Shown here: positions 9,632-51,507 of the stretch, piece after piece
Numbering within the stretch: position 1 is the stretch's first letter
Layout: every line of letters starts with the position of its first letter
IMG/VR virus record: IMGVR_UViG_3300037424_000314
Coordinates: 1 to 51,507 of that record
Reading direction: 5' to 3' (one strand)
Length of the DNA stretch: 51,507 nt
Source: a virus
The notes under the pieces: generated by a model
Database searches by the model: none
What the model was told of the DNA's origin: nothing
The model's input: the letters and a program-made list of their open reading frames with translations, nothing else
Program-made: the position numbers and the translations under genes

Positions 9632-10191
9632 TACGGCAGGACAAATATATTTCTCACCCTCTACGCTGATGCCCCGCAACCAAACTTAACTCTCAGGCAG
9701 TTGAGTGACCCTGTCACCCCTCACTGCCTAAGCGAGGGGTCTCTTGATGATGAAGACATGATCAGAGGTGTGCCCTCCTTACCATGTGGCGGAGGCTACT
9801 ACAAGAGTAGTGTGTTGTCGTATAGAAAAAAATACGTTTTTTTCGAAAACATTTGTTTGCCAAAAACGTTTTTACGACGGACTGCAGCTCTATCCGCTTC
9901 TTACTAAACTATGCTTACGTTGATTACATTTGATCTCTAGCGTCGAAGTGTTGTTCAAGGTGCAAGTGAGTGAGGCAAGCCGATTTTAACAGGAAGGTTA
10001 CGACGAAAGGAGTAAATCGCTGCCATTGGAACGTTTTTCGTTCTTTTTGACACAGGAATGTTACGATCGTTCAATTAACGTACACCACCGGCATCTAGAC
10101 AACTGCGATGGGTAATAGACGTAACATAGCTAGGCCGTCGAGCGTGCCGCTTTTGCACAAAAACGGTTGCAGGATGAAAAGTCATGGGTTT

Positions 10192-10355: not shown

Positions 10356-10364
10356 TGCTATGAT
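10356..10364 (+). promoter_or_regulatory. Candidate extended -10 element TGCTATGAT
   Basis: TGnTATGAT motif. A TTGACA hexamer at 10329-10334 is badly spaced (24 nt), so only the extended -10 is supported. Confidence 0.3.
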
Positions 10365-10638
10365 ACGATGATTACGTCAGAGCATTGCGCGGGAGTTTAT
10401 GACCTATGTATTGAACGACGCATCATTACATACAGGCTACGTTACGATGATTAGGTTATATTCATAGCGCCTATAGACCATAATTCATTATAAATTTGCG
10501 GCAGGCGACCGTTGCAATTGGTATCCAAAAGGGCCGTAGGTTACCATTAGCTTGGTTAACGCCTTTTATTTGCTATGTGAGGCTGATGATCCTAGACCCG
10601 AGATCGTGAAAAAATATGTGTACTTGCACAAAATTTCA

Positions 10639-10647
10639 TGGTATGAT
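10639..10647 (+). promoter_or_regulatory. Candidate extended -10 element TGGTATGAT upstream of the first rightward gene
   Basis: TGnTATGAT lies 47 nt upstream of the ATG at 10694. It has the same 9-mer form as the element at 10356. Confidence 0.35.
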
Positions 10648-10693: not shown

Positions 10694-11095
10694 ATGGCAC
10701 GCATCTACACACCAACACAGGTCCTCACCACGTCACCAGTGGGACAGCTTCGTCTGATCCAGAACGCATTCACGGATCTGAAGGGTGGGACCGTGAAGGA
10801 GATCACTGAGCATGTGGTCAAGGGCGGTCTCGTCACCAAGCAGGATCCTACCCGAGTGGTCATGTTCTACATGATCCACCTCAGCAAGTTAGGTAAGGTC
10901 AAGGAGATCACGGAGACGGAGCTCGTCACACTGAGGGGTAATGGTAAGGATAAACTGACAGAGATTGTCACTGACCGCAAGGGAAAGAAATGGGCCAAGT
11001 TCTCTACCGATCCTGTTCGCGGTGGGGAGTATACAGGACCCATGACCAAGAAGACCGCTACGAAGAAGACCACTTCCAAAACCACCAGCCGCTAA
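10694..11095 (+). CDS. Small DNA-binding-like protein: winged-helix-like module (paralogue A) plus a Lys/Thr-rich basic tail
   Basis: The ATG is preceded by AAGGAGAATAACC. Residues 17-72 (GQLRLIQNAFTDLKGGTVKEITEHVVKGGLVTKQDPTRVVMFYMIHLSKLGKVKEI) align with segments of genes 47741..48343 and 48365..48715. The C-terminus is TKKTATKKTTSKTTSR. Confidence 0.65.
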   Translation: MARIYTPTQVLTTSPVGQLRLIQNAFTDLKGGTVKEITEHVVKGGLVTKQDPTRVVMFYMIHLSKLGKVKEITETELVTLRGNGKDKLTEIVTDRKGKKWAKFSTDPVRGGEYTGPMTKKTATKKTTSKTTSR

Positions 11096-11106: not shown

Positions 11107-11128
11107 GGGGAGACCATCAGGTCTCCCC
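11107..11128 (+). terminator. Perfect 9-bp GC-rich hairpin after gene 10694..11095
   Basis: GGGGAGACC-atca-GGTCTCCCC, 12 nt after the stop. It is followed by tctccctt, a weak pyrimidine tract and not a clean U-run. Confidence 0.45.
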
Positions 11129-37900: not shown

Positions 37901-40483
37901 GCAGTGACCTGGGCCGACATCATCCTTGGTGATGGTACCTCAATCTTTATAGATGAGAATGGTCAGTGGTCCATTGATCATGGTGATCGCGTTGAGAGCT
38001 TTGAAAGTTTTCGAGATTTATTGTTCCTCTACGACAAAAAGTCAGACTTCACCCAGGCCCCAGACCTCGTGGGTAATCTTGAACGTGAGGCTAAGGAGCT
38101 CGGTGGTAAGGACTTCTTTAATGGTCTACCTTGGGTCGATGGGCCACCCCGGTATAACCCTGAGGCGGACCAACTTGGTCCTGTCACTGAGGACGACATC
38201 TATGAGGCTGTCAGTAAGTATACTCGACGGGACGTATTGGCTGGCAAGCCCTTTAAGGCGGAGGTAGCCCGTGAGGAGGCCAAGGAGTCCTTTGGCTCAT
38301 CCGGCCTGTCAGCCTTCTGGCGGGCCTCGCGAGACTGGTTCAATCAAGTTGAACGTGACCTGGGTCATCAGATCTTTTCTAACATCTACCTACCATTGGA
38401 CTCGGCGCGTATTCCACATGACCGGTGGTTGGATCAGGCGGCGAAGAAGATCAAGCACCTTTGGAGGATCCCAGTTGAACGACGGGTGGTCTTGCGTGAT
38501 TACCTTGAGGCCAAGGGCGCTGAGGCCAAGGCAGAGGTAGCCTTACGTAATCATATGTCGGATCAGGAACTTAGATGGTCTGCTGAGATCCGCAACTATT
38601 TTGATGAGACCTTCAGGGAGTTCGGGATCGGTGATGCTGCCCCGTACGTTGAGGACTACATGCCGCGCGTGATGCGTGCGGTGTACGCCCAACGCGCCGG
38701 GAAGAAATCAGACTTCTCCCCTTTTAGTGAATCAGGGGTGAATGAGACGGCGGACTACTTTGCCAAGCACGCACGCACCATTGAGGATGCCAAGCGCGCT
38801 GCGACCGAGCCTGACGCGGTCAAGCTCCTATGGGTTCACATGCAGATGGGCGCCCGCGAGCACTTCATGGGCAAGGCCTGGGACCAGGCAGTGCAGGCAT
38901 TCAAGGACCCTAACCTTCCAAGGGGCCTGCGGCTGCCGATCGCCAACTACATGAATACCATGTACGGTGGGCGTGACTACAGCATGGACGCCATCCGGAA
39001 TTGGTGGAGGGCGATCATCAAGCTACCGCTGATGAATCGACTCGGTCTCACGGAGGAGTGGATCGACAAGTTGGTCTTATTCCAGTACTCTAGCTCATTG
39101 GGGATGCGGCCGGCCCTAATGGTCAGGGACATGACGCAGTCCTTCCTGTCGGCGTATCCTCACCTAGGTGCACGTTGGTACGGGCACGGGCTACGGATGA
39201 TTGCAGATGAATCAACCTGGGATCTAGCAGAGAAGTACGGTGCTCTTGTACCTCAAGCGTCAGCACCGATCCCAGAGGGTTCATTCACCCCTGGTAAGCA
39301 AGAGACTGGTGAGATATTTACTGAGGATTTTCTGCGTAGCACACTGTGGTTCACCCAGGCGGGCAATAACTTCGGGCGGGCCGTAACGTTCCGGGCGGTT
39401 TATGATCGAGCACTCCCGGCCATCGCCAGATTTAGACAGGATCATAATGTCGACGTTTTCCACAGAGACTCCGGCGCGGGCAAACTGCAGGAGTCCCTGA
39501 CAAAAGACATCGAAATGAAAGCCGTAAGCGATGACATACCCATCGAAGACGTCGCGGGCACGTTGGCACGTTATTTTGTTGAGCATACACAGTTTCCATT
39601 CCGAAAGGGTAATGCCCCATGGCCTCTGCGATATCAAGCTGGTAGAATCCTAGGGATGTACGGCCAGTGGAGTGAACAGTTTAGCGAGTATATGTGGCGA
39701 TCGTGGCGGCGTGGCACCCCTGGGGAGCGACTCCAGTGGATGTCGAGATGGGCCGTGGCCAACTACTCCACGTATAAGTTCTTTGAGACCATGGGTGCCG
39801 ACGTATCTCGCTGGGTTTGGACATCCCCTGGTGAGTATAGCGGTTCAGTGTTCAGTAGTCTCGCCGCTGACATCATGGGCGCTCCGGCAATCGGTTCAAA
39901 ATATGGGGAGACCGCGCGAAAGGGATTGATTGAAGCGCCTCTAGATTTCATCCCCATGTGGGCACAGATGAAGAACATGGCGAAGGCCATGAATGACCCG
40001 AACCCTTTGGTCAGGATGTTGGGCTTCACACCGGTGAAGCCGAAGCCACCGTTCAGTGAGGAATACGCGGTTAATCTAGATAGAGCTGAACAAGACTTAG
40101 AAGATCTTGCAACTCAGGGCATTCAGGGAGAGCCCGGGGTTCAGGTCCCAGAGATTTTACAAGAGCTTCCAGTAACGCCAGGTGGCCCTGAGACTCTTGG
40201 CCCAACTGAGGATGAGGAGTTTGACGCCATGCGTGAGAGATACCTCGCGCGCCCACAAAAACCCGGCACTACAGAGCAAACGGAGGTGCTCCCTGGAGTC
40301 TTTAGGATCGGAGATATGAGCTGGGCTAACATGCCCGACCACAAGTCCTATGACCTAATCGTCTGGGACAAGGCCACTGGGCAGTATGTTGATACCTTCT
40401 TCAGTACTGCTGCAGATGAAGATCTCGTTGAGAAGGTTCGAGAACGTCGAGCCGCCTTTGGTTGGGATGAAAGGCCTAAATGA
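34925..40483 (+). CDS. Giant (1852 aa) internal virion/ejection-type protein with an HExxH zinc-metallopeptidase-like motif
   Basis: It is the longest ORF and the last large gene of the structural arm (T7 gp16-like position). VMNHEIGHHLVK is at residues ~852-863. No lytic transglycosylase or RNA polymerase motif recognised by eye. Confidence 0.6.
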   Translation: MGTVPPIGRTGIPEIDEIYQSWEIKAAESAPESLKPPTLDIPLEVLQKQHAANQAESAKSWWSGFYDALKPERDDISLASHLTSEVIRGSFGQALSGMASVFVDLPGKILSGAQNLPGALQQAGYEGRNVADTLKADSPELAKQVEETVNALYPVNTEMTKSFWAGDLPRGAGSLAFNLLAGPSGALTLGSAIAAGQGFKEAEEAGAPFGAALGSLVSNGLLGATEAAPILGAYERIAGKLGPLGMEKILKKYSHTTLAAGIAGVLEEGTQEVLQQFGSNVTAKMLYDTQRDLMEGVATSGEVGGILGFVMNAMARKIGHLRTSKYDKPNTRSQPPVVTDMEKVPDPTSLGSQARLHVAQDEFKYLNAVPESSTVFSGRDLETAQLVGPTVTFEDGTTAAMNREWEPEIKAKFIQEVIKAGRSVTDVMGSALDVQEYYNLLSVYATPSETTETVMTTPEEATSAATTLADLGISAVADGNTLVVYPDQKTAREGRELKYQQPSTQEEGLTNVLEQGGTFRKEEFTFPTEEALTGPVTSQFTEGLFTGERIAQDLGMTAEEAVTAGTVRRTPEGMYEYTERTVNPPKAPFRAGWNPDYENYLKGTQDRPQLILAYEALRRDVDSGTIKDNMMVSAAQASLMEMEELIKQRHPDWAQQFKLGEPRDRAFTPEPQYGPEGLPGPRQLPLPMYTQEQPTQGAPMVATDLNLTPDQRVEAAQRSGQLGGQADQLLERMIGRRRSVNDLSPKVQLMLALESEGFDPRLLDEDEVQALSDELNAEEFAVTPGGEERVTRRERILRRLAELPGRTAQTPTGPVRMVRFEEANLNEDIEGVMLINEGDTLIGVGKGFGISVMNHEIGHHLVKRITFLKNRIDMWDQFGDLGLRTEEPTADTLNKMAKALTSEYYAYKNPSVAREEIFVRLMSSIKNIWEPQAKEEMRRLVQIDTSLEHVLDLAHNFSEHTQDVIRGDNDYWARRMGRYMRSVNQRLNPAASAVTWADIILGDGTSIFIDENGQWSIDHGDRVESFESFRDLLFLYDKKSDFTQAPDLVGNLEREAKELGGKDFFNGLPWVDGPPRYNPEADQLGPVTEDDIYEAVSKYTRRDVLAGKPFKAEVAREEAKESFGSSGLSAFWRASRDWFNQVERDLGHQIFSNIYLPLDSARIPHDRWLDQAAKKIKHLWRIPVERRVVLRDYLEAKGAEAKAEVALRNHMSDQELRWSAEIRNYFDETFREFGIGDAAPYVEDYMPRVMRAVYAQRAGKKSDFSPFSESGVNETADYFAKHARTIEDAKRAATEPDAVKLLWVHMQMGAREHFMGKAWDQAVQAFKDPNLPRGLRLPIANYMNTMYGGRDYSMDAIRNWWRAIIKLPLMNRLGLTEEWIDKLVLFQYSSSLGMRPALMVRDMTQSFLSAYPHLGARWYGHGLRMIADESTWDLAEKYGALVPQASAPIPEGSFTPGKQETGEIFTEDFLRSTLWFTQAGNNFGRAVTFRAVYDRALPAIARFRQDHNVDVFHRDSGAGKLQESLTKDIEMKAVSDDIPIEDVAGTLARYFVEHTQFPFRKGNAPWPLRYQAGRILGMYGQWSEQFSEYMWRSWRRGTPGERLQWMSRWAVANYSTYKFFETMGADVSRWVWTSPGEYSGSVFSSLAADIMGAPAIGSKYGETARKGLIEAPLDFIPMWAQMKNMAKAMNDPNPLVRMLGFTPVKPKPPFSEEYAVNLDRAEQDLEDLATQGIQGEPGVQVPEILQELPVTPGGPETLGPTEDEEFDAMRERYLARPQKPGTTEQTEVLPGVFRIGDMSWANMPDHKSYDLIVWDKATGQYVDTFFSTAADEDLVEKVRERRAAFGWDERPK
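37487..37501 (+). other. HEIGH (HExxH) motif codons inside the giant protein
   Basis: cat gag att ggc cac, read directly. Confidence 0.8.
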
Positions 40484-40931: not shown

Positions 40932-41312
40932 TCAATCGATGATCCGGTCATCATCAGCGGGGTAGGGTCCAGTACCCAGTTTGGAGAACTGGTCAGTTAC
41001 AGTTCCTGGGGCATCCTTGATCTTACTGTAGATCTCAGTTTGGTCAAGGATGATGAACTCGACCTCCCCCGTCGATTTATCTGCCCGTGGGTGGGTCCGG
41101 TCAATCACGGTGAAGACGATCCCTGACAGACGTGTGAACAACACCCTCTCCCCTGGCTCAAACCCTCGCACGTCCGGGCCAACCGCCAGGATCTTACCGA
41201 CGGTTGTCTTGGACTTGGCCACGTCAGGGATGACCAGGCCTGCCTCTGACTTATAGACGAACGCGTCCCTGGCCACGATCATCTTGGTCCATACTGGTTC
41301 TAGTCGTTTCAT
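40932..41312 (-). CDS. GroES/Cpn10-like co-chaperonin
   Basis: 126 aa. LEPVWTKMIVARD...EAGLVIPDVAKSKTTVGKILAVGPDV...FEPGERVLFTRLSG...EFIILDQTEIYSKI follows the Cpn10 pattern (L-x-P-x-x-[DN]-[RK]-[VIL]-[LIV]-V...GI-x-IP...G-x-V-x-AVG...GD-x-V-x-[FY]...IL-x-x-x-DI-x-A). Confidence 0.6.
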   Translation of the reverse strand: MKRLEPVWTKMIVARDAFVYKSEAGLVIPDVAKSKTTVGKILAVGPDVRGFEPGERVLFTRLSGIVFTVIDRTHPRADKSTGEVEFIILDQTEIYSKIKDAPGTVTDQFSKLGTGPYPADDDRIID

Positions 41313-41644
41313 TCGTCAACCACCTCCCTGAATCGCCCGGTGGACGCCGCATCGTCAGCGGCCAGGTAATAGTCCCAGTCGGTTGCCAGCAGGTCCGTTT
41401 GACTTGGCAACCACGGGACAAAGGTCGGGACCGGGTCTGCCGTCTTCATCATGACATACGGTGAGAACACGCACACCGTGCCCTGGGGTATCCCAGTAGC
41501 TTGGGCCGTGTTCGAGTTGATGGGGATCCCCTCAGGATACCCCTTTTGAAGGGTGATGTACATGTCCCTTCCATTCCAGCCGCTACGCTGGACCTTGTGG
41601 CCGTTGCGCAGCTGGATGAGCGTCCACTCAAACCCACGTTTCAT
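41309..41644 (-). CDS. DUF2829-family protein (Tad2-like, candidate Thoeris anti-defence sponge)
   Basis: 111 aa. FEWTLIQLRNGHKVQRSGWNGRDMYITLQ...PWLPSQTDLLATDWDYY matches the DUF2829 hallmarks (G-[KH]-[KR]-V-x-R-x-GWNG...[IL]-x-LQ...W-x-[PA]-SQ-x-D-[LM]-LA-x-DW). ATGA overlaps on both sides. Confidence 0.75.
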   Translation of the reverse strand: MKRGFEWTLIQLRNGHKVQRSGWNGRDMYITLQKGYPEGIPINSNTAQATGIPQGTVCVFSPYVMMKTADPVPTFVPWLPSQTDLLATDWDYYLAADDAASTGRFREVVDE

Positions 41645-42777: not shown

Positions 42778-43125
42778 CTATAGTCCGGTGAAGTCTGGTG
42801 GAACCCAGTCTGGTCCTTTTAGGAGCTTACCGTGGCCGGTGTCCTGACCCTTGGTCATGTTCGACGTGTGCACACGATCCATTGCCTCATCCGCATCGAA
42901 CCCGTACAGGCACGCCGCACCGTAGCAGACGTACAACAGGTCCGCCACCGCGTCAATCACCGCCTCACGATCATGCTCCTGCATCCCAATGATCAGCTCG
43001 GTGGCCTCCTCAAGAATCAGACGCGCGCGCACGAAGCGCGTGTCCACGTGGTTATGATCAAGTGACAGGTCATACTTTAACATGAACTCTGCCACCTTTA
43101 CCTGATTCGGTCCTATGCTATACAT
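42778..43125 (-). CDS. MazG-like all-alpha nucleoside triphosphate pyrophosphohydrolase
   Basis: 115 aa. RARLILEEATELIIGM...AVIDAVADLLYVCYGAACLYGFDADEAMDRVHTSNMTK shows the E-x-x-E...D-x-x-D metal-binding helix pattern of MazG/HisE-type NTP-PPases. Confidence 0.7.
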   Translation of the reverse strand: MYSIGPNQVKVAEFMLKYDLSLDHNHVDTRFVRARLILEEATELIIGMQEHDREAVIDAVADLLYVCYGAACLYGFDADEAMDRVHTSNMTKGQDTGHGKLLKGPDWVPPDFTGL

Positions 43126-43128
43126 GTA

Positions 43129-43491
43129 TTACTTCCTCCATTGAACGATCTGATTCAGCACATTGTCTAACGTGCCTGAATGAAGAAGCAGAACTTCCCA
43201 GTCATGCCCACTTCTGACCTGCCACTGAACCGGCTTATGCTGATCAAGCACCCTAATGAAATAGGCCCTACCGCCATTTTCACGGTATAGGTCCGCCATG
43301 GTTTTAAGCTGTAACTTGGTGGGGTCGTTGTACTCACGTTTCACCTCTACCCATGTTGTGCTACCCTTATAGGTGTACGTGGAGTCGGGTAAGGCCGCCA
43401 CATACGGGTTGGATAGCTTAAAGATCACAATACCATCGAACATCTCCTTTGCTCGTGTACGCATCTTGTTAGACCAGAACGATTCATTCAT
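43129..43491 (-). CDS. PD-(D/E)xK-type nuclease (VRR-NUC/resolvase-like, tentative)
   Basis: The ATG at 43491 lies 7 nt after GGAGGT and overlaps the polymerase stop (ATGA). LPDSTYTYKGSTTWVEVKRE fits D-x(n)-E-x-K. Confidence 0.5.
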   Translation of the reverse strand: MNESFWSNKMRTRAKEMFDGIVIFKLSNPYVAALPDSTYTYKGSTTWVEVKREYNDPTKLQLKTMADLYRENGGRAYFIRVLDQHKPVQWQVRSGHDWEVLLLHSGTLDNVLNQIVQWRK

Positions 43492-45239
43492 GCGGCTAAC
43501 CTCCATGAGTCGCCCTTCTTAACCTTCCAAATGATGGGTACCCTTAATTCCATCTCCTGTTCGTTGAACACCTCCTCTATCTTCTTGATGTCGGCATCTG
43601 GGTGCACCGTGCCGTCCACCTCATCATGCACCGTCATCTGCATCTTAAACCCTAGGTTCTTCATCACTGAGTAAATCTTAACGATCTTAAGCTTCATTAG
43701 ATCAGCCGCCGTGCCCTGGATCATAGCATTCAGCGCGCTGTGCAAACGATCCCGAAGTGGGTAACGACGTCTTCGTCCCAATAGTGTCTTAGCAAAACCC
43801 CGTCGTTTTACGATTTTGATGACATCCCACATAAGTCGTGATGCCTCTGGAAACATCGCTTCATACTCTTTGTTGATCTCTTCGCCACGTTCCAGGGTAC
43901 AACCAAGCTGAGCACACACCTTGTCTATGCCCATGCCATAGATCTTCCCGAAGTTCCAATTCTTTGCCGATTTCCTGACCCATCCTATCAGCTTGGCTAC
44001 CTCCTCATGAAAGTCGCAGTCAGGATCATCGACATACGCCTTAATCAAGCGAGCGCTACGGCTGTAATGCGCAAAGATTCTGAATTCTATCTGACTCGCG
44101 TCGGCGGAGAGCCAGTAACCACCATCAGGGATAAAGAGCTCACGGATGATCCACTGTCTGGTGGACTCATCTTGCCGCTCCTCCGAGAAGACCTGCTGAA
44201 TGTTGACGCTCGAGCTCGAGTACCGTCCGGTGATGGTGCCATACTCGTTGCCGCGCAGCTGGTTTAGGTTGTAGTACAACCGGCCGTTGACCTGCTCACG
44301 CCAGTATTTATCGAGATACTTAGAGCACAGGCTGCTGATCTGCCGCGCCGCCAGTGCCATGCCAATGACGCGGGATTGTTTCTCAGTTGAGGCCCCCATC
44401 ATTAACAGGAGCGATTGCTCCGTGTATGAGTCCTCTCCACCGGCGGTAAACATTGGGACTGAAAGTCCCATCACCCTGAATAATTTATTCAGGCTAGTTG
44501 CCTTGTTGGGGCTAACCTGGAATCCTACCGCGTTTGAGATTTGTGTGCATAACCAAGCGTGTTTCTGTTTTGCCTCGACGCGCCAGCGCGCCAGCTTTGG
44601 CATGTCAAGCCGGGCGCCTTGGCGCTCCATGAACAGGGTTGGGTAGGCGCAGGCATCTTCAAGGTTTGCGACCTCAATTAACTCCTCTGCCCGGATAAGT
44701 GGTCGGGCATGCTCGTACAGTTCATAGGTTAGTCGGGCATCGTTAGTACAGTATGGACCTACCTCCCATGCAGGCATCACATTGATCGGCATCCTTGATG
44801 GCATGACCTTCTTGCGTTTCTTCAAGAAGTCAAAGGCCAAGGACTCTAGATCGAACTTACGTCGCTGCTCATTGAGCAGGGCATAGTAGTACTGAACACA
44901 TCTAGGTTTACACCCTAACTGTTCGAGATCAACCCCAACCTTTAACATCATCGAGATGTCAAAGCTCGGATTGACCAATGCGACCTCCTTACCCTTGAGG
45001 TTGTCGTTTGCCCAACGCGAGACAGCACCAGGGTCCATGTTACCACCGCCCTGGTGACCCCACCCAAAGTAATACTCCAAGCCAGGAGCATAGACACCGA
45101 AGCCGACGGGCTTGTCGTGGCCGCGCCAGTTCAAACCCGTGGTCTCAGTATCCAGACCGATGCACTTGACGCCGGCTAGGTTGGGTGGCTCCATCTTCAC
45201 CCTCGGCGTATTTACCGTGAAGTCAAGTTTGGCCTGCAT
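43488..45239 (-). CDS. Family-A DNA polymerase with a 3'-5' exonuclease domain
   Basis: 583 aa. Exo I GLDTETTGL, Pol motif A LSADASQIEFRIFAHYS, motif B RKSAKNWNFGKIYGMG, motif C MTVHDEVDG. Confidence 0.92.
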   Translation of the reverse strand: MQAKLDFTVNTPRVKMEPPNLAGVKCIGLDTETTGLNWRGHDKPVGFGVYAPGLEYYFGWGHQGGGNMDPGAVSRWANDNLKGKEVALVNPSFDISMMLKVGVDLEQLGCKPRCVQYYYALLNEQRRKFDLESLAFDFLKKRKKVMPSRMPINVMPAWEVGPYCTNDARLTYELYEHARPLIRAEELIEVANLEDACAYPTLFMERQGARLDMPKLARWRVEAKQKHAWLCTQISNAVGFQVSPNKATSLNKLFRVMGLSVPMFTAGGEDSYTEQSLLLMMGASTEKQSRVIGMALAARQISSLCSKYLDKYWREQVNGRLYYNLNQLRGNEYGTITGRYSSSSVNIQQVFSEERQDESTRQWIIRELFIPDGGYWLSADASQIEFRIFAHYSRSARLIKAYVDDPDCDFHEEVAKLIGWVRKSAKNWNFGKIYGMGIDKVCAQLGCTLERGEEINKEYEAMFPEASRLMWDVIKIVKRRGFAKTLLGRRRRYPLRDRLHSALNAMIQGTAADLMKLKIVKIYSVMKNLGFKMQMTVHDEVDGTVHPDADIKKIEEVFNEQEMELRVPIIWKVKKGDSWRLAA

Positions 45240-46114
45240 TATTGATCCGTCAGCAGGAGATTAAAGGCTTCCTTACGCGGGTGCGTAAGTACCTTAGCAA
45301 AGGTAAACCATGGCTGTGGGAAATCAACGGTCTTACCTCGATCATTGAGAATGACTTGACCATCATTAATCGGTAACGATGGGGCATTGAAGATGGCAGC
45401 AAGCTCTGGTGGAGGAGGAGAGAACATACGGTCACTGCCATAACATGAGATGTCTTGCAGGCCACTGCACATCTCACCAAGCCTGTCTAGGTCTCTCTCA
45501 TACATGTGGGCTGAGCCGAGGTTGAACTGTAAGAAACCTGGTAAGCAACCAAGATGAAAGCAAAGAAGGTTCATGATTTGGGAGAATACATAAAAGTCAT
45601 AGGGCAAACCAAGGAAGATGTCCGAGCTTCGCATGGTGACGATCGTGTTCAGGAAGTCTTCACGTCGAATGAACTGGACGTTCAGGGTACACATGACGTC
45701 CTTGGTCGGCATCCATGGGGTTTCCCAGATACCGGCCACCGCCTGCCTCGTCTGAGGGTCCTCCTTTAGCTTCCCAAGCACATATGGGAGTGCCACCTGA
45801 AGTCTCGGCCCGTACGCGCCCCACATCTTCATACCGTCATCAGAGAATTCGACGATTCGTTTGTTGTAATTTCCTATGGACGGTGCGTCGTCGTAACCAA
45901 AGAGGATCCACAGAAACTCCGCAACCATAAACCTGTAGTTCAAGTCGCGGGTGGGATGGTACAGGATATTGTGCATAGGTTCATTCACGCGAAAGGATGA
46001 TCCAAGAATCTCTCGCGTTGGGATGCCACGTGGGCCGGCTGGCGTGCCGTCATAAATGATTTGGCTGGCAAGACCACGATATGCCGCGTTAAAGTAACCG
46101 CAATTGAGATGCAT
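45239..46114 (-). CDS. Thymidylate-synthase-fold pyrimidine C5-transferase with the dCMP-specifying Asp (dCMP hydroxymethylase/methylase-like)
   Basis: 291 aa from the ATG at 46114; the ORF extends to 46165. Motifs AEFLWIL, YGPRLQ, TRQAVAGIW, nucleophile VMCTLNVQFIRRE, MRSSDIFLGLPYD (Asp codon GAC at 45596-45598, where TS has Asn) and LGSAHMY. TAATG overlap with the polymerase gene. Confidence 0.8.
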   Translation of the reverse strand: MHLNCGYFNAAYRGLASQIIYDGTPAGPRGIPTREILGSSFRVNEPMHNILYHPTRDLNYRFMVAEFLWILFGYDDAPSIGNYNKRIVEFSDDGMKMWGAYGPRLQVALPYVLGKLKEDPQTRQAVAGIWETPWMPTKDVMCTLNVQFIRREDFLNTIVTMRSSDIFLGLPYDFYVFSQIMNLLCFHLGCLPGFLQFNLGSAHMYERDLDRLGEMCSGLQDISCYGSDRMFSPPPPELAAIFNAPSLPINDGQVILNDRGKTVDFPQPWFTFAKVLTHPRKEAFNLLLTDQ

Positions 46115-47027
46115 GGTTGTGCTCCATAGCCTGTTTGAATAGTTTAAGGTATTCCGTGGCTTCATGATGTTTGAAGCGATGGTAGAACTGCGGGTGTGGC
46201 AAACAAGTACATGGGATATCTTGCTGTACTAGCATCTTAGCGGCCTGCTGCCCAAGTGCAAGGACCCGTTTAAGTTTCTTCAGGTCACCAATGATAGGCT
46301 TCATGATGCGTGGCGAACCATCCTTACGGTATGCGTTGGTCAGGTAGTAGTTGTGCCCGATCCCAAGACGCATCAGGGTATTGATCAGGTACGCACTTGA
46401 CCCAGCCGTGGAGAAGAATGGCAGGTCATACATCCGATGGTTGCTCATCTCCCCAACGATTAGGGTCTCAGACCAACTTGGCCCTATCCCAAGGTCAAAA
46501 GGAATCTGCGAGTCGCGCGCCGCGATGAACTCAATGCGCTTCCTTATTAAGTCCACGACCTCAGGGTCAAACGGGTCGATGACTTCCCATCCACTAAGCT
46601 TAAAGCTACGATCTTGGTACAATTCATAGATATGGACCAGTTCTTCCATCTTCTGGAGATATTCAGTCTCGCGTCGTTTCTTCCAGGTCTTAACAACTGC
46701 CTTAAGTGGCGCCGCGCAGATCAGACCAAAGCCATGGCTAAAGACGATATGGTCGATGATGTGCTGCCCAATCTCACCAAGATTGTCACGGTTACGTTTG
46801 ACTGGGCCATACGTGCGTTCACCCAGGTGAAGGCGGTCATGGATACAAAAGGGGTAGGTCAGGGCCTTCACGGCGTAGTGCTCAAATAATGATGGGGCAT
46901 CTGGTGGTAGGCCCTCATGCATGCGATTAACGTGCTTGGTGTTAAACGCACGCATAATGTACTCTTCGAGTTTATTAGCCAGTGTCGTTTTACCGGTGCA
47001 GTCACAACCTTCAAGAACAATCTGCAA
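46089..47027 (-). CDS. Fusion protein: thymidylate-kinase-like P-loop dNMP kinase (N-terminal) + family-4-like uracil-DNA-glycosylase-fold domain (C-terminal)
   Basis: 312 aa. The TTG start at 47027 follows GGGAGGTG. N-terminal domain: IVLEGCDCTGKTT (P-loop) and IHDRLHLGERTYG (DR motif). C-terminal domain from ~aa 170: TLIVGEMSNH...LPFFSTAGSSAYLINTLMRLGI...YYLTNAYRK...VLALGQQAA...CLPHPQFY, which tracks UDG family-4 motifs (IVGE-x-PG, PF-x-G-x-AG, Y-x-TN, LG, HPS). Confidence 0.75.
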   Translation of the reverse strand: MQIVLEGCDCTGKTTLANKLEEYIMRAFNTKHVNRMHEGLPPDAPSLFEHYAVKALTYPFCIHDRLHLGERTYGPVKRNRDNLGEIGQHIIDHIVFSHGFGLICAAPLKAVVKTWKKRRETEYLQKMEELVHIYELYQDRSFKLSGWEVIDPFDPEVVDLIRKRIEFIAARDSQIPFDLGIGPSWSETLIVGEMSNHRMYDLPFFSTAGSSAYLINTLMRLGIGHNYYLTNAYRKDGSPRIMKPIIGDLKKLKRVLALGQQAAKMLVQQDIPCTCLPHPQFYHRFKHHEATEYLKLFKQAMEHNHASQLRLL

Positions 47028-47757
47028 GGGTCACCTCCCAGAGGTTATTGCGCGAGTAGTCCGGGTACAGCGGGGCGAACATGACTGACATGACCTCCCC
47101 GCCATAATACTGCGCAAGATTTTCAAAGATGATGAGCTCATCAGGATTCATGGCCTTGGTGATCTCAGGCTTGCTGGCAAACGTGCCCCAACGCTTTTTA
47201 ACCTTAAGACCTGCCTCCTCAATAAGGTCATTCAACTCCTCTGCAGTATACTCATGGATGTGGTTGACTGCCGCGGCGCCATTAAATATGGGCGTTGATA
47301 GATAAAGGGTAGAACGCTGGTCCATGAGTGATTTGATGTTGGTCAACAGGGTAAGACCATCCTCAGTCTCCATGTGTTCAATCACCTCAAAGCAGGTGAT
47401 CGTATCATAGGGCCCACGCAGCTCAACGAAGTCTGCGATGAAGTCAAACTCCCACCAGATAGATGCCCATGACGGGCAGATGGATCCCTCAGGTTGTTTG
47501 TTTAAATCAATGCCATTGTACTCGGTAGGGATAAGGCTTTTGTTCCCCATCAGGACACGGAGTAACGGCTGATCTTGCCCGCAACCTACATCAAGGATCC
47601 TCTTCCCATAGGCACGGTTCTTATTAATGAACCCCCATCGGAAGAAGTGGGCCGCATAGTCACGGTGTACGTTGTACCCGTAATGTGCGGCCTTAAGCTG
47701 GGTCTTGTCAAACCGACGCGCTGGACGCGTACGACCTGACCTAGTCGGTTGGGGCAT
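47011..47757 (-). CDS. Class-I SAM-dependent methyltransferase (not a recognisable DNA MTase)
   Basis: 248 aa from the ATG at 47757, 7 nt after AAGGAGG. Motif I RILDVGCGQDQPL, post-I GIDLN, YDTITCFEVIEHM. No DPPY/NPPY or PCQ motifs. Confidence 0.8.
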   Translation of the reverse strand: MPQPTRSGRTRPARRFDKTQLKAAHYGYNVHRDYAAHFFRWGFINKNRAYGKRILDVGCGQDQPLLRVLMGNKSLIPTEYNGIDLNKQPEGSICPSWASIWWEFDFIADFVELRGPYDTITCFEVIEHMETEDGLTLLTNIKSLMDQRSTLYLSTPIFNGAAAVNHIHEYTAEELNDLIEEAGLKVKKRWGTFASKPEITKAMNPDELIIFENLAQYYGGEVMSVMFAPLYPDYSRNNLWEVTLADCS

Positions 47758-48343
47758 CAAGGACCTCCTTATCTCGGTGGAGAACAATGTAGTATCTGAC
47801 GATGCGCTCAGGTTCTTGACGAGTGGTTAACTTCCCACCCTTGACCACATCTGCAGTAAGTTCGGCGATGGTTGCAGGACCCAGGCGTTTCAACGAGTCG
47901 AACACCACACCCCGTTGACCGCCACCGGTCTTGGTACCTTCCTTCAAGATGTATCTCTTCTGCAGAACGTCTGAGGTCTTCTTGTTGGGCTGGATGTAGC
48001 TGTCAGGCATCTCCCCAGTCTTAAGAAAGATCTTGAATCTCTCTACCCGCTTATCGTGTCGGTCCTTGATCTTCTGGTCAACCGCATTGAAGTAGTGTTG
48101 CAGCCATGTAAGCTGTACGAAGCTGGCAACGACAGGCACGTAAATTTCAGATGGGCAGGTGAGTGGCATTTCAAGGTCGTGGTGTATGAGAAACCGTTGG
48201 GCGGATGATGCACTGAGCAGCTTCAATTTCGCAACCGTGACGGAGATCCCACGAGCACTAATGAGAAGCTCGTAGGATCCCTTCACGTAGTAAAGATCCC
48301 CGTCCTTCTCACGAAGGACGGGTTCAATAGGTTGATTTTTCAT
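47741..48343 (-). CDS. Two-domain protein: novel N-terminal domain + winged-helix-like module (paralogue B)
   Basis: 200 aa. Residues 142-196 (GQRGVVFDSLKRLGPATIAELTADVVKGGKLTTRQEPERIVRYYIVLHRDKEVLDA) align with genes 10694..11095 and 48365..48715. Confidence 0.65.
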   Translation of the reverse strand: MKNQPIEPVLREKDGDLYYVKGSYELLISARGISVTVAKLKLLSASSAQRFLIHHDLEMPLTCPSEIYVPVVASFVQLTWLQHYFNAVDQKIKDRHDKRVERFKIFLKTGEMPDSYIQPNKKTSDVLQKRYILKEGTKTGGGQRGVVFDSLKRLGPATIAELTADVVKGGKLTTRQEPERIVRYYIVLHRDKEVLDAPTD

Positions 48344-48364
48344 GTGAGTGACCGATCGTTGTGG

Positions 48365-48715
48365 TTAGGCTGCCTTGACTGCCTCGACGGTGCCGGCCTT
48401 CTTCATGCTGGTCATGTAGAAACTGACCACCGACTTCGCGGATTGTTTCGTCTGCAGCTTTCCCTCGATCTCTTTTGTGATCTCGTCGATCGTGGCCTCT
48501 CCCTTCTTCTTCAGGGCATTGACGATCAGCTCGACCTGGCCACCTGTCTTGAACTTTACCTCCTTGGTGGTGAGTTTGAACTTCGTGGCGACCTTGGGCT
48601 CCTTGGCTTCCTTTGCCCCCTTCTTTCCTGCAGCAGCGTCAACATCGGTCTCAGCTGCCTTCTTGCTGACCTTCTCCGCAGGTGCTGCGGCTGCCTTGCT
48701 TTGTTTCTTTGCCAT
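48365..48715 (-). CDS. Histone-H1-like small basic protein: Lys/Ala-rich tail + winged-helix-like module (paralogue C)
   Basis: 116 aa, SD AAAGGAGAG. N-terminal tail MAKKQSKAAAAPAEKVSKKAAETDVDAAAGKKGAKEAKEPK. Module GQVELIVNALKKKGEATIDEITKEIEGKLQTKQSAKSVVSFYMTSMKKAGTVEAV. Confidence 0.7.
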   Translation of the reverse strand: MAKKQSKAAAAPAEKVSKKAAETDVDAAAGKKGAKEAKEPKVATKFKLTTKEVKFKTGGQVELIVNALKKKGEATIDEITKEIEGKLQTKQSAKSVVSFYMTSMKKAGTVEAVKAA

Positions 48716-48757: not shown

Positions 48758-48786
48758 CATTATATTAAGAATTTTGTCCCGTGTAA
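48758..48786 (-). promoter_or_regulatory. Near-consensus sigma70-like promoter TTTACA-N17-TATAAT (minus strand)
   Basis: The reverse complement of 48781-48786 is TTTACA and of 48758-48763 is TATAAT, with an exact 17-nt spacer. It lies in the only sizeable gap (48716-48824) of this part of the leftward arm, ~40 nt upstream of the ATG at 48715. Confidence 0.6.
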
Positions 48787-48824
48787 ACAAGATCGACAAA
48801 AATACTTCTGCGGCAGGGGACCGA

Positions 48825-50015: not shown

Positions 50016-51489
50016 CGGACTCCTCTTCCTTTCTCAAGCCAAAGAATTCATCATACTTGATTGCCCATAACAGGGTCAACTTGCCGTCAATTGAGACCCG
50101 TTTGTAGTTGCAGCCATGGTTCTTAATCAGCATGAAGAGCTTATTATCCGCGATCCTATCTAACTTATGCATTGCCATGTACTTCTTAAGTGAGTTGCCC
50201 CTGAAGACAATGTACTCTCCTTTCTTTACTGGTAGGTCACGAAAGATGTCCATGTCTTGCTTGGCCTTTTCACATAATTCCAAGAACTCTGTAACACAGT
50301 TAAGGATCTGGCCATTGATTGAGGCGTCCTGAGGTGCCCCAATCTCAGTCCGTTTATCAAGCAAGTCCTTTACCTGCTTCTCCCAGTCAAGTTGCTTCAG
50401 CGGCTTGACCACGAGATTCATGATCTCCATCAGGCGCAGACGGAAGACCCTAAAGGTTAGGAATTCCTCACTTGATAACGAGATGTCCTTGCCATTCACC
50501 TCCAACATAAAGTATGGTGGATCCGTATTAAGTTTCCTACAGTGTGTGATCACTGCCGGATGGTAGATACTATCTGATTCCTTACCAGGGAAATTCGATA
50601 TTCCAAACTTAAGCTTCGCGCATGAGTCATAGTCGCAATGACTACAGATCGGCTCCGTGTCACAGGTATATTGGTACGTAGTCTTATTCAAAGACCGGAC
50701 GACGGTATTAAGCTCTTTGTAGGGGAGTGGTGGACTCACATTCCGAAGATTGTGCTCCATCAACTGAGATTCCCAGTCCTTCGGGTTTGACTTCTTAAAG
50801 AAAACTCCGAAGTTAAACAGCCCAGAGTTACGTGACCCCTCTGGTAGACCAAGCTTGGTCAATGCCTTAAGACAGGGCGGGTACTCCTTTAATGCCTCAT
50901 CATCATCGATGGCTCCAGATTCTTGGATTTGAAACGTTGGCAGCTTGTCTACCGCTTCAAAGAACTCGGCTAATGAGAGTGGTCGCTCTGTGCTGATGGC
51001 ATATCGGACAGTCTGATTAACGTTATGGTACGGAAGATTTATCCAGTTGCCTATAACGTCGGGCGTGATCTTAACCTGCTTTGGAAAGATCTCTGACTTT
51101 GTGTACCCGAGCTTAGTCGCCCATGCCTTCATCTGAGACTTTACGACAGCTGCCTGAGTTGGTTCCTTAAAGAATGCAAATAGGTGTGCACCTCCAGATT
51201 TTGTTTTGCAGACAATGAGCGGTAGTTTGTAGTCTGCAATCCGTTTTGCAAGGGTCAGGTGGTTCAGGTCATAGACGTCAACATCGATGGCCGCGAACAG
51301 ACAAGTCCCATCTTCTTGGATTGGGACGATGCCTAGACCAAGCTTACCATCCAAGTGATCTTGATAATGCTGAGGAGTCACGGGGCGTTGGATGGTCTTC
51401 GCCCCGTGCTGATCACTCCAGATTCCGTATGCCGACGCCCGACCGGTGAACAGCTCACTAAATCTCACCAGTTGGTTCGGGGTCGTCAT
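49999..51489 (-). CDS. Archaeo-eukaryotic-primase (AEP/prim-pol) superfamily primase
   Basis: 496 aa. LFAAIDVDVYD (DxD), KSGGAHLFAFF (sGxxH) and a downstream Cys cluster CDTEPICSHCDYDSC. No Walker A, so the helicase is encoded separately. The first 109 nt lie in the terminal repeat. Confidence 0.75.
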   Translation of the reverse strand: MTTPNQLVRFSELFTGRASAYGIWSDQHGAKTIQRPVTPQHYQDHLDGKLGLGIVPIQEDGTCLFAAIDVDVYDLNHLTLAKRIADYKLPLIVCKTKSGGAHLFAFFKEPTQAAVVKSQMKAWATKLGYTKSEIFPKQVKITPDVIGNWINLPYHNVNQTVRYAISTERPLSLAEFFEAVDKLPTFQIQESGAIDDDEALKEYPPCLKALTKLGLPEGSRNSGLFNFGVFFKKSNPKDWESQLMEHNLRNVSPPLPYKELNTVVRSLNKTTYQYTCDTEPICSHCDYDSCAKLKFGISNFPGKESDSIYHPAVITHCRKLNTDPPYFMLEVNGKDISLSSEEFLTFRVFRLRLMEIMNLVVKPLKQLDWEKQVKDLLDKRTEIGAPQDASINGQILNCVTEFLELCEKAKQDMDIFRDLPVKKGEYIVFRGNSLKKYMAMHKLDRIADNKLFMLIKNHGCNYKRVSIDGKLTLLWAIKYDEFFGLRKEEESDALEL

Positions 51490-51507
51490 CAGCGTGTACC
51501 TTGAGTG
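51381..51507. repeat. Right copy of the exact 127-bp terminal direct repeat
   Basis: Identical to 1-127, read directly. Confidence 0.9.

What the first reader, a model, noticed from the sequence alone, without database searches (positions are those of the whole stretch)
47741..48715. Three paralogous copies of a ~55-aa winged-helix-like (linker-histone-like) module, one fused to a Lys/Ala-rich histone-H1-style tail
Seen: the following segments align by eye over ~55 residues.
- Gene 10694..11095: GQLRLIQNAFTDLKGGTVKEITEHVVKGGLVTKQDPTRVVMFYMIHLSKLGKV
- Gene 47741..48343: GQRGVVFDSLKRLGPATIAELTADVVKGGKLTTRQEPERIVRYYIVLHRDKEV
- Gene 48365..48715: GQVELIVNALKKKGEATIDEITKEIEGKLQTKQSAKSVVSFYMTSMKKAGTV

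The shared core is GQ-x3-[IV]-x2-[AS]-[FL]-x4-G-x-[AG]-T-[IV]-x-E-[IL]-T...T-[KR]-Q-x4-[IV]-V-x-[FY]-Y.

Each copy has a different partner: a Lys/Thr-rich C-tail, a novel 140-aa N-domain, or a Lys/Ala-rich N-tail (MAKKQSKAAAAPAEKVSKKAAE...). Two copies sit directly behind predicted promoters, at the head of the rightward arm and at the 48.7-kb promoter.

Inference: the helix-turn-helix-wing pattern and basic tails resemble the H1/H5 globular domain plus tail. This suggests phage-encoded nucleoid-remodelling or genome-coating proteins, or sequence-specific regulators of the iteron-rich control region.
Basis: partly seen in the sequence, partly recalled or inferred. Interest (0 to 1): 0.68.

Follow-up and report, generated by a model that had tools for sequence, protein, structure and literature searches.

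The report
Phage winged-helix paralogs partnered with a methyltransferase

Summary
ORFs 48365..48715(-) (p116), 47741..48343(-) (p200) and 10694..11095(+) (p133) share a ~70-aa module (pairwise BLASTP E 2e-8 to 1e-10).

AlphaFold models (pLDDT ~87) give a beta-alpha-beta-alpha-alpha-beta winged-helix-like fold. Linker histone H1.0 tops the Foldseek PDB list, but not significantly (E 0.3-0.9). Pfam and hhalign (probability 4%) show no specific H1/H5 relationship. The Lys/Ala tail is N-terminal, 44 aa long and only net +5.

- 206 clusters in an exhaustive search.
- No model in Pfam, PHROGs or NCBIfam, and no sequence relative in the PDB.
- No match in cultured phages; a limited peptide-pattern scan of GTDB genomes also found none.
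- Several copies per phage genome is common.
- Acidic tails are more common than basic ones.

New finding: the p200-type gene lies directly upstream of an orthologous UbiG-like SAM methyltransferase in five diverged lineages, usually with a p116-type gene before it. In 58 of 80 other viral contigs the same methyltransferase is preceded by proteins ending in a related small helical domain (hhalign 60%), as in Stenotrophomonas phage AXL3 gp32 and gp34. That domain is sometimes fused to the enzyme.

Best reading: these are nucleic-acid-anchoring modules. p116 and p200 partner the methyltransferase in a DNA-modification/replication operon, and p133 is a switch-region regulator. None of these functions has been tested.

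The parts
48365..48715 (-). p116 gene (116 aa). The Lys/Ala-rich N-tail is residues 1-44 (48584..48715). The module is residues 45-116 (48368..48583).
   Evidence: ORF. Module HMM E 1e-26. Composition: 26 K, 0 R, 21 A, pI 9.8. Orthologues P0014 and P0018-P0028.
48759..48787 (-). Sigma-70-type promoter TTTACA-17-TATAAT in front of p116. An AAGGAG ribosome-binding site follows just upstream of the ATG at 48715.
   Evidence: 11 of 12 consensus matches. Sequence read. The -35 and -10 blocks are conserved in L003 and in the more distant L009.
47741..48343 (-). p200 gene (200 aa). N-domain residues 1-112 (48008..48343), flexible linker 113-128 (47960..48007), module residues 129-200 (47744..47959).
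   Evidence: ORF. AF2 model pLDDT 86.7 with a low-confidence linker at 118-123. The N-domain family has invariant Q77 and W80. Module HMM E 7e-21.
48299..48322 (-). 10-bp GC-rich hairpin 20-45 nt into the p200 ORF. It may act as an attenuator or translation brake between p116 and p200.
   Evidence: Terminator-like site. RNA fold z -2.7 in the window and -3.8 in L003. L009 has a positionally equivalent 14-bp hairpin of different sequence; L020 has none.
47011..47757 (-). UbiG-like class I SAM methyltransferase (248 aa from the ATG at 47757). It overlaps the end of p200 by 17 nt, 14 nt before the p200 stop codon, and has its own AAGGAGG ribosome-binding site. It is the conserved partner of p200.
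   Evidence: Pfam Methyltransf_23 E 2e-13. Distant UbiG/ChlM matches. Orthologues directly downstream of p200-type genes in L003-5, L008, L009, L017/18 and L020/21.
10694..11095 (+). p133 gene (133 aa). The module is residues 1-78 (10694..10927). The C-terminal part 79-133 ends in a Lys/Thr-rich tail (10928..11092).
   Evidence: ORF. Module HMM E 2e-24. The module is nearly invariant in orthologues P0002-P0017 while the tail varies. Residues 67-129 match PHROG 26283, E 8e-6.
10639..10647 (+). Extended -10 element TGGTATGAT upstream of p133, inside a block conserved in relatives.
   Evidence: Sequence. The block TGTGTACTTGCAC...TG(G/A)TA(T/A)GAT is conserved in L013 and L015. The strict -35/-10 scan did not call it.
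11107..11128 (+). Perfect 9-bp hairpin GGGGAGACC-ATCA-GGTCTCCCC just after the p133 stop codon. It probably terminates or stabilises the transcript and would make p133 a single-gene unit.
   Evidence: Read directly from the sequence. The terminator scan did not call it because no T-run follows.
10364..10453 (+). Pair of identical 11-mers TACGATGATTA (10364..10374 and 10443..10453, 79 nt apart), with a one-mismatch copy at 9916..9926. All lie in the 1-kb non-coding region upstream of p133 and are candidate protein-binding sites.
   Evidence: These are the only exact copies in the window. A pair is kept in relatives L013/L014 (79 nt apart) and L015/L016 (88 nt apart, one copy inverted).

Best explanation
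The family is confined, as far as these searches show, to uncultured tailed phages, and it typically occurs in several differently decorated copies per genome. I take the module to be a nucleic-acid (most likely DNA) anchoring domain, with the tail or extra domain setting what each copy does.

- p116 and p200 are the two small-domain partners of a conserved cassette with a UbiG-like SAM methyltransferase. The cassette heads the DNA-modification/replication operon: methyltransferase, P-loop kinase, thymidylate-synthase-like enzyme, PolA, MazG.
- p116 is made from a strong host-type promoter. It would bind DNA with little sequence preference, helped by its Lys/Ala tail.
- p200 is tethered by a flexible linker to a helical N-domain and is translationally coupled to the methyltransferase. 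It would bring or hold the enzyme at its substrate.
- p133 is a single-gene unit between the leftward and rightward arms. It would be the sequence-specific regulator of that switch region.

Shown: homology of the three modules, the predicted fold, the family's distribution, the synteny and the gene fusions. Inferred: DNA binding, the adaptor role and the regulator role.
For: Homology and fold:
- Pairwise homology of the three modules.
- Two independent AF2 models give the same fold at pLDDT ~87-90.
- All interpretable Foldseek neighbours are winged-helix domains: H1.0, H1x, Fur, FOX, MecI, PadR.
- Weak Pfam matches go to wHTH families only.
- Modules are mostly basic: mean net +3.5, and +3 to +7 in the window.
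- Strongly basic tails recur, and P0067 has four copies in tandem.

Several copies per genome in unrelated contigs: L001 has 3, L010 has 3.

p200-type gene directly upstream of the orthologous methyltransferase in five lineages:
- The methyltransferase is 50-85% identical, while p200 is only about 23% identical in the distant lineages.
- The two genes overlap by 4-50 nt in four of the five lineages.
- p116-type genes sit next to p200-type genes in the window clade, L009, L019, L020/21 and L024-26.

The methyltransferase in other phages:
- Of 80 IMG/VR contigs carrying it, 58 have a small 3-helix domain at the C-terminus of the ORF just upstream. 43 of those have a second such ORF further up.
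- This domain aligns in register with the module (hhalign probability 60%, E 8.6e-5).
- It is fused to the methyltransferase itself in P0263, P0264, P0292 and P0290.
- The cultured representative is AXL3, with gp34-gp32-gp31. Its DNA resists 35 of 37 restriction enzymes (PMC7504290).

p133:
- It is isolated between non-coding regions of 1036 and 518 nt. It has a conserved extended -10 and a hairpin after the stop codon.
- A conserved pair of 11-mers lies upstream.
Against: - There is no experimental or sequence-level link to any characterised DNA-binding family.
- Foldseek E-values are all above 0.1.
- The model lacks the usual C-terminal beta-hairpin wing.
- The commonest family architectures carry acidic tails or linkers. 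This fits protein-protein or DNA-mimic roles as well as DNA binding.
- The methyltransferase resembles small-molecule O-methyltransferases, and its substrate is unknown.
- Synteny among these phages could partly reflect shared ancestry rather than function.
- 12 of the 75 methyltransferase loci with upstream sequence show neither domain type.
- Module-bearing regions L001 and L010 contain no methyltransferase within the fetched stretch, although the L010 and L012 contigs carry one elsewhere.
- The link between the module and the AXL3-type domain is only 60% probability.
- The candidate 11-mer sites are not tied to any particular protein.
Confidence: 0.45

Rival explanations
1. All three are ordinary sequence-specific winged-helix transcription factors that time early, middle and late gene expression. 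Their position next to the methyltransferase is inherited gene order with no functional meaning.
For: - wHTH-like fold.
- No other recognisable regulator among the window ORFs scanned.
- The phage uses host-type promoters.
- p133 sits in the switch region next to conserved repeated 11-mers.
- In L001 and L010 the paralogues cluster in small-gene, strand-switching regions.
- Exposed positions of helix 3 vary between paralogues while the buried ones are conserved.
Against: - The p200-methyltransferase pair survives in L017, where the rest of the neighbourhood differs.
- The two genes overlap.
- A related small domain is fused to the enzyme in some phages.
- No repeated operator-like motif was found near the p116 promoter.
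- Lys/Ala tails and four-module tandem arrays are unusual for specific repressors.
Confidence: 0.25
2. The module is not a nucleic-acid binder. It is a protein-interaction or regulatory domain, or even the substrate (for example, methylation of the Lys-rich tail) of the neighbouring methyltransferase.
For: - The conserved residues (GQ, T-x-Q-x-P, FY) look like helix caps and core rather than base-contacting positions.
- Acidic tails dominate the family.
- The methyltransferase resembles non-DNA methyltransferases.
- Foldseek also lists peptide-binding RRE domains: TbiB1 (TM 0.60-0.69) and PqqD (TM 0.19).
- The fusions and tight coupling to the enzyme fit a regulatory subunit equally well.
Against: - The secondary-structure order differs from RRE domains.
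- The module has a net positive charge and basic tails recur.
- p133-type and L001/L010-type copies occur away from any methyltransferase.
Confidence: 0.15
3. One reading: a phage linker-histone analogue or homologue. p116 would be an abundant H1-like protein that coats or compacts phage or host DNA, and the other copies would be derivatives.
For: - H1.0 globular domains are the top four Foldseek PDB hits.
- p116 has a strong conserved promoter and ribosome-binding site.
- 22% of its residues are Lys and none is Arg.
- Family members P0118 and P0033 have truly H1-like or very basic tails.
- From general knowledge, there is a functional precedent for a phage histone-like protein tuned to modified DNA: SPO1 TF1.
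Against: - Those Foldseek hits are not significant (E 0.3-0.9).
- No Pfam Linker_histone hit and hhalign probability 4%.
- The tail is N-terminal, 44 aa long, net +5, with six acidic residues.
- Most family members have acidic or no tails.
- The gene lies in the early/replication arm, not among the virion genes.
Confidence: 0.1
4. [quoted passage not shown]
For: - No OB-fold SSB was recognised among the left-arm ORFs scanned.
- p116 and p200 lie between the helicase/primase genes and the polymerase gene.
- Acidic C-tails, as in SSBs, are frequent in the family.
- Winged-helix ssDNA binders are known in archaea (Sul7s, PMC8998557, listed).
Against: - No similarity to Sul7s or to any SSB was detected.
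- The window copies have basic, not acidic, tails.
- Several small ORFs remain unannotated and could encode the SSB.
Confidence: 0.05

Closest known systems
Linker histone H1/H5 globular domain with its Lys-rich tail (Pfam PF00538)
   Same: - A small three-helix winged-helix-type domain joined to a Lys/Ala-rich disordered tail.
- H1.0 is the top Foldseek hit (TM 0.58).
- Helices 1 and 2 align in register.
   Different: - No sequence or profile relationship.
- The predicted sheet uses an N-terminal strand instead of a C-terminal beta-hairpin wing.
- The tail is N-terminal, short and weakly charged.
- Most relatives carry acidic tails.
Stenotrophomonas phage AXL3 gp34 / gp32 / gp31 (two hypothetical proteins plus a methyltransferase), and the equivalent genes in 58 IMG/VR contigs
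   Same: - The same orthologous methyltransferase (35% identity).
- It is preceded by a ~200-aa protein whose C-terminus is a small helical domain after a Lys/Ala-rich segment, with a second paralogue further upstream.
- The same downstream genes: NTP pyrophosphatase, P-loop kinase, thymidylate-synthase-like enzyme.
- The domain aligns in register with the module (probability 60%).
   Different: - The AXL3-type domain is shorter (three helices, no flanking strands by sequence).
- The module HMM does not detect it.
- The N-domains are unrelated.
- Neither set has a tested function.
Winged-helix repressors of the BlaI/MecI, MarR, PadR and Fur type
   Same: - Fold class.
- Weak Pfam and Foldseek matches.
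- The helix 3 to KKxG turn pattern resembles the recognition helix and wing start of these repressors (my reading).
   Different: - No significant match to any of them.
- No recognisable dimerisation or sensor domain.
- Charged low-complexity tails and tandem arrays are atypical.
Phage SPO1 TF1, an HU-family histone-like protein that prefers hydroxymethyluracil DNA (general knowledge, not tested here)
   Same: A possible functional analogue: a small, abundant, phage-encoded DNA-binding protein in a phage that probably modifies its DNA.
   Different: - Unrelated fold (HU). No Bac_DNA_binding hit.
- DNA modification in this phage is inferred only from gene content and from AXL3.

Membership tests
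Linker histone H1/H5 (Pfam PF00538) | Sequence or profile match to the globular domain | tested here: not met
   - No Linker_histone hit for the three proteins at E<=10, nor for 148 family members at E<=0.01.
- hhalign of the family against five H1/H5 globular domains gives probability 4%.
- GH5 was verified against 1HST.
Linker histone H1/H5 (Pfam PF00538) | Three-helix winged helix with a C-terminal beta-hairpin wing | tested here: inconclusive
   - The model has a helix 1 - short strand - helix 2 - helix 3 - strand core, plus an N-terminal strand. No hairpin wing is predicted.
- Foldseek H1.0 hits: TM 0.58, E 0.3-0.9.
Linker histone H1/H5 (Pfam PF00538) | Long, highly basic C-terminal tail (about 100 aa and about 40% Lys, from general knowledge) | tested here: not met
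   The p116 tail is N-terminal and 44 aa long, with 25% Lys, six acidic residues and net +5.
Winged helix-turn-helix superfamily (fold level) | Helix 1 - strand - helix 2 - turn - helix 3 core packed against a small sheet | tested here: met
   Two AF2 models agree. The isolated module has pLDDT 87.1, and the module inside p200 has pLDDT about 90. This is a prediction only, not a solved structure.
Winged helix-turn-helix superfamily (fold level) | Significant structural or profile match to a characterised member | tested here: inconclusive
   - Best Foldseek PDB E-value is 0.34.
- The best BFVD hit is an uncharacterised phage protein, E 0.01.
- Pfam gives only sub-threshold wHTH matches: Csm1_B, HTH_9, HTH_12, Penicillinase_R, MarR_2.
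Winged helix-turn-helix superfamily (fold level) | Binds nucleic acid | not testable with these tools
   Indirect evidence only: basic modules and tails.
   No hit. A DUF3489 phage protein appears only at rank 46 in BFVD, E 4.
Methyltransferase-associated small-domain pair (AXL3 gp34-gp32-gp31 type cassette; not a named family) | The gene ending in the small domain lies directly upstream of the orthologous Methyltransf_23 enzyme | tested here: met
   Seen in the window, L003-5, L008, L009, L017/18, L020/21 and L024-26.
Methyltransferase-associated small-domain pair (AXL3 gp34-gp32-gp31 type cassette; not a named family) | A second paralogue with the same domain lies upstream | tested here: met
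   A p116-type gene is adjacent in the window, L009 and L020/21. It is one gene away in L019, and 2.7 kb away in L018.
Methyltransferase-associated small-domain pair (AXL3 gp34-gp32-gp31 type cassette; not a named family) | The domain is homologous to the AXL3 gp32/gp34 C-terminal domain | tested here: inconclusive
   - hhalign probability is 17% with 7 sequences and 60% (E 8.6e-5) with 25 sequences. The alignment is in register over helix 2, helix 3 and the KKxG turn.
- HMMER finds no cross-hits.
HU/IHF/TF1 type II DNA-binding proteins | Pfam Bac_DNA_binding match | tested here: not met
   No hit.

The most novel reading that the evidence does not exclude
The two paralogous small-domain proteins (p116 and p200 here; gp34 and gp32 in AXL3) are the DNA-targeting subunits of a UbiG-like methyltransferase of small-molecule type. 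Together they would form a widespread three-gene phage cassette that carries out a so-far undescribed post-replicative step of DNA hypermodification, or that reads and coats the modified DNA. This would explain the near-total restriction resistance of AXL3-type genomes.
Probability: 0.2. Interest if true: 0.75.

Novelty: new variant of a known kind. Interest (0 to 1): 0.5.

Why it matters
The domain itself is one more winged-helix-type family, though one that no curated library holds. It is frequent in uncultured phages and occurs in several copies per genome.

The more useful result is the cassette. A methyltransferase family with more than a thousand clusters in phage contigs is almost always preceded by one or two proteins ending in this small helical domain or a related one, and the domain is sometimes fused to the enzyme. 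A cultured representative, Stenotrophomonas phage AXL3, has DNA that resists 35 of 37 restriction enzymes through an unknown modification.

This gives a concrete experimental handle on which genes make that modification, and on how an enzyme with no DNA-binding domain could be brought to DNA. The obvious experiments are AXL3 knock-outs and nucleoside mass spectrometry.

Tried and rejected
Tested and rejected:
- **Linker-histone homology.** No Pfam hit and hhalign 4%.
- **DUF3489.** No hit.

Searches that found nothing:
- Sequence searches of the PDB with module profiles found nothing meaningful.
- Foldseek with the whole p200 model gave no match for the N-domain, so its fold stays unassigned.
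- tblastn of four different family members against 50,697 GenBank phages found no match.
- A pattern scan of 185,579 GTDB genomes found no relative. That scan used only TRQDPERVV-type patterns, so the negative is limited.
- The first search for related loci attempt failed because the alignment was too diverse. A narrower one gave only three viral loci.
- Three contig look-ups gave contigs under 2 kb. Those (L008, L009) still showed the start of the downstream methyltransferase.
- The N-domain profile search found only full-length p200-type proteins, so there is no evidence that the N-domain occurs alone.
- Rfam has no family match in the window.

Operator hunt:
- The palindrome AAAAACGTTTTT and the TTACGAT-type words are enriched in the window's control region but are not conserved in relatives.
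- Only the TACGATGATTA pair is conserved.

Leads left open:
- A UDG-like C-terminal half of the 312-aa kinase protein got only a sub-threshold hit, in one homologue.
Full report
**1. Observation**

The three ORFs are present exactly as reported: 48365..48715(-), 116 aa (p116); 47741..48343(-), 200 aa (p200); 10694..11095(+), 133 aa (p133).

- The shared segment is significantly similar in all three pairs: BLASTP E 2e-9, 1e-10 and 2e-8 at 33-40% identity.
- A six-frame scan with a family HMM finds only these three copies in the window.
- The partner segments are as described: a 44-aa Lys/Ala-rich N-tail in p116, an N-domain of about 112 aa plus a linker in p200, and a C-terminal part ending in a Lys/Thr-rich tail in p133.
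- p116 follows a near-consensus promoter (TTTACA-17-TATAAT, 48787..48759) and an AAGGAG ribosome-binding site. Both promoter hexamers are kept in relatives, including the distant L009.
- p133 has no canonical -35/-10 pair by the scan. It does have a conserved TG-n-TATGAT extended -10 at 10639..10647.

**2. Genome context**

The window is a complete, circularly assembled phage genome. Its first and last 127 nt are identical.

- A rightward arm (10.7-40.5 kb) carries the terminase and virion genes.
- A leftward arm runs from 9657 through the origin of the contig to about 40.9 kb. It carries an SNF2 helicase, Pam3 gp33/gp34-like proteins, an AEP primase, a UvrD helicase, p116, p200, a SAM methyltransferase, a P-loop kinase protein, a thymidylate-synthase-like enzyme, PolA, MazG, a Tad2-like protein, an amidase and a GroES-like protein.
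- p133 sits alone between 1036 nt and 518 nt of non-coding DNA, where the two arms diverge. A perfect 9-bp hairpin follows it.
- The phage is far from anything cultured. Megablast finds nothing, and PolA is at most 30% identical to known phage polymerases.

**3. The module's fold**

No Pfam, PHROG or NCBIfam model and no PDB sequence matches the module. There are only scattered sub-threshold hits to winged-helix families.

- AlphaFold2 on a 10-sequence alignment gives pLDDT 87, with the order strand, helix 1, short strand, helix 2, helix 3, strand.
- The same elements appear at pLDDT about 90 inside the p200 model.
- Foldseek against the PDB lists linker histone H1.0 in the first four places, then Fur, an RRE domain, H1x, FOX, MecI and PadR. 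Every E-value is above 0.3 and TM is about 0.58.
- The best BFVD hits are uncharacterised phage proteins.
- A profile-profile comparison with H1/H5 globular domains gives probability 4%.

The fold class (winged-helix-like) is therefore supported. Kinship to linker histones is not.

The p116 tail is N-terminal and 44 aa long, with 25% Lys, six acidic residues and net +5. That is quite unlike an H1 C-terminal domain.

**4. The family**

An exhaustive HMM search of 1.84 billion representatives finds 206 proteins at E<=1e-3. The consensus is GQ..L....L......T..EI......L.T[RK]Q.P.RVV.FY....KK.G.V, with Q16, Q47 and Y56 invariant in 47 diverse members.

Architectures among 147 representatives:

| Architecture | Count |
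|---|---|
| Module + long, usually acidic C-terminal region of 90 aa or more (a second, probably winged-helix domain in the members inspected) | 40 |
| Module + acidic tail | 32 |
| Module alone, or short neutral ends | 29 |
| N-domain of 90 aa or more + module (4 of these also have a basic C-tail) | 27 |
| Basic N-tail + module | 16 |
| Module + basic C-tail | 3 |

- Some basic tails are strongly H1-like (P0118: AAKKSAKKAAKKAAPKKAA), and one protein has four tandem modules (P0067).
- No member was found in 50,697 GenBank phages, nor by pattern scan in 185,579 prokaryotic genomes.
- Several copies per genome is common. There are three within 4 kb in L001 and three in L010, both unrelated to the window phage.

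**5. The conserved cassette**

Close relatives keep the order UvrD - p116 - p200 - methyltransferase - kinase - ThyA-like - PolA. More telling are the distant lineages.

- In L009, L008, L017/L018 and L020/L021, a p200-type protein is again directly followed by the orthologous methyltransferase. The p200-type protein is only 21-24% identical to p200 in three of these lineages and 41% in L009. The enzyme is 50-73% identical, with the N-terminal motif QPTRSG..RP.RRFDKTQL.
- In four of the five lineages the two genes overlap by 4-50 nt. In the window the enzyme's ATG, behind its own AAGGAGG, lies 14 nt before the p200 stop codon.
- In L017 the other neighbours differ, yet the pair persists.
- A p116-type gene (tail + module) lies just upstream in the window clade, L009, L019, L020/21 and L024-26, and 2.7 kb away in L018. 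The p116/p200 duplication is therefore old, and the pair is maintained.
- The p200 N-domain is a three-strand meander, two short helices and a long helical hairpin. It has invariant Q77 and W80, has no structural match, and was never found without the module.

**6. The methyltransferase and a second domain type**

The enzyme is a class I SAM methyltransferase (Methyltransf_23), distantly like UbiG and ChlM. Its family is large: at least 1133 clusters, mostly on contigs of 20-100 kb.

Among 80 IMG/VR contigs carrying it:

- 58 have a different small three-helix domain (consensus ..R.LI..GK.N..I...V...F.LDD.KR.Y.AWYR..LK..G) at the C-terminus of the ORF immediately upstream.
- 43 of those 58 have a second ORF with the same domain further up, typically about 1 kb.
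- 3 have the window-type pair.
- 2 have a module protein 0.7-1.5 kb upstream.
- 12 of the 75 loci with upstream sequence have neither.

This second domain aligns in register with helix 2, helix 3 and the KKxG turn of the module. hhalign probability is 60% (E 8.6e-5) with 25 sequences, and was 17% with 7. HMMER does not connect the two.

In some phages this domain is fused to the methyltransferase itself: at the N-terminus in P0263, P0264 and P0292, and at the C-terminus in P0290.

The cultured example is Stenotrophomonas phage AXL3, with gp34, gp32 and gp31 (the methyltransferase), then an NTP pyrophosphatase, a 'thymidylate kinase', a thymidylate synthase and a dCMP deaminase. AXL3 DNA is cut by only 2 of 37 restriction enzymes, which its authors take as evidence of an unknown base modification (PMC7504290).

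**7. Interpretation**

- Shown: the three modules are homologous; the fold is predicted to be winged-helix-like; the family is new to the libraries and specific to uncultured phages; paralogue sets are typical; p116 and p200 belong to a conserved cassette with a methyltransferase.
- Inferred: the module anchors to nucleic acid. The grounds are the fold class, a net positive charge, recurrent basic tails and tandem arrays.
- Inferred: p200 couples the enzyme to its substrate. The grounds are translational coupling, persistence of the pair, and fusions of the related domain.
- Inferred: p116 is an abundant, low-specificity DNA binder. The grounds are the strong promoter, the Lys/Ala tail, and a hairpin early in the p200 ORF that could keep p116 in excess.
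- Inferred: p133 is the switch-region regulator. It is a single-gene unit with a nearly invariant module, and a conserved pair of 11-mers (TACGATGATTA, 79 nt apart) lies upstream.

I give this combined model 0.45. The main rivals:

| Rival | Confidence |
|---|---|
| Plain transcription factors, with the synteny non-functional | 0.25 |
| A protein-interaction, regulatory or substrate role for the module | 0.15 |
| An H1-like coating protein | 0.10 |
| A winged-helix SSB substitute | 0.05 |

**8. Caveats**

- All structural statements rest on predictions.
- No Foldseek match is significant.
- The five 'lineages' were not tested phylogenetically for independence.
- The link between the two domain types is moderate.
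- The methyltransferase's substrate is unknown.
- DNA modification in this phage is inferred from gene content and from AXL3 only.

Noticed in passing
window 1-127 and 51381-51507: The first and last 127 nt are identical. The window is therefore a circularly assembled, probably complete phage genome of 51,380 bp, and the leftward arm runs across the contig ends.
   Followed up: yes
window 42778-47757 (-): A gene set typical of DNA base modification: UbiG-like methyltransferase, a 312-aa P-loop kinase protein, a thymidylate-synthase-like enzyme (possibly a pyrimidine hydroxymethylase) and MazG, next to PolA. The C-terminal half of the kinase protein looks UDG-like by eye, but only one homologue gives a sub-threshold Pfam UDG hit. 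The orthologous set in phage AXL3 goes with restriction-resistant DNA.
   Followed up: partly
window 10364-10374, 10443-10453, 9916-9926: The 11-mer TACGATGATTA occurs exactly twice, 79 nt apart, plus one near-copy, only in the 1-kb non-coding region upstream of p133. The pair is conserved in relatives L013/L014 and L015/L016. These are candidate binding sites of an unknown protein, or an origin element.
   Followed up: partly
window 9827-9873: An AT-rich stretch containing the perfect palindrome AAAAACGTTTTT and a near-copy 32 nt upstream. The word AAAAACGT occurs four times in the control region and nowhere else in the window, but it is not conserved in relatives.
   Followed up: partly
window 48299-48322 (-); L003 10403-10426; L009 760-801: A stable hairpin 20-45 nt inside the p200 ORF. 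It is kept in L003 and replaced by a different 14-bp hairpin at the same place in L009, but is absent in L020. It may be an attenuator or translation control element between p116 and p200.
   Followed up: partly
window 41309-41644 (-): A 111-aa protein with a Tad2-like (Thoeris anti-defence 2) domain, Pfam E 1.6e-21.
   Followed up: no
window 34925-40483 (+): The 1852-aa protein at the end of the virion arm has a weak local match (E 4e-5, residues 195-331) to the PHROG of N4-type virion RNA polymerase. It may simply be a large ejection or tail protein.
   Followed up: no
window 43488-45239 (-): The best cultured matches of the family A DNA polymerase (about 30% identity) include Acinetobacter phage polymerases, one of which (vB_AbaSI_2) is annotated as DpoZ. 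No PurZ-type gene was noticed in the window.
   Followed up: no
window 40932-41312 (-); window 78-866 and 1202-1693 (-): A phage GroES-like Cpn10 protein, and homologues of cyanophage Pam3 gp34 and gp33 (PF23977, PF23984).
   Followed up: no
P0067 (397 aa, metagenomic protein): Four tandem copies of the module in one polypeptide.
   Followed up: no
L020 1980-3395: In one lineage a C5 DNA methylase (PF00145) is inserted between the UbiG-like methyltransferase and the kinase/ThyA-like genes, and a dCMP deaminase follows them. This hints that the cassette acts on cytosine.
   Followed up: no
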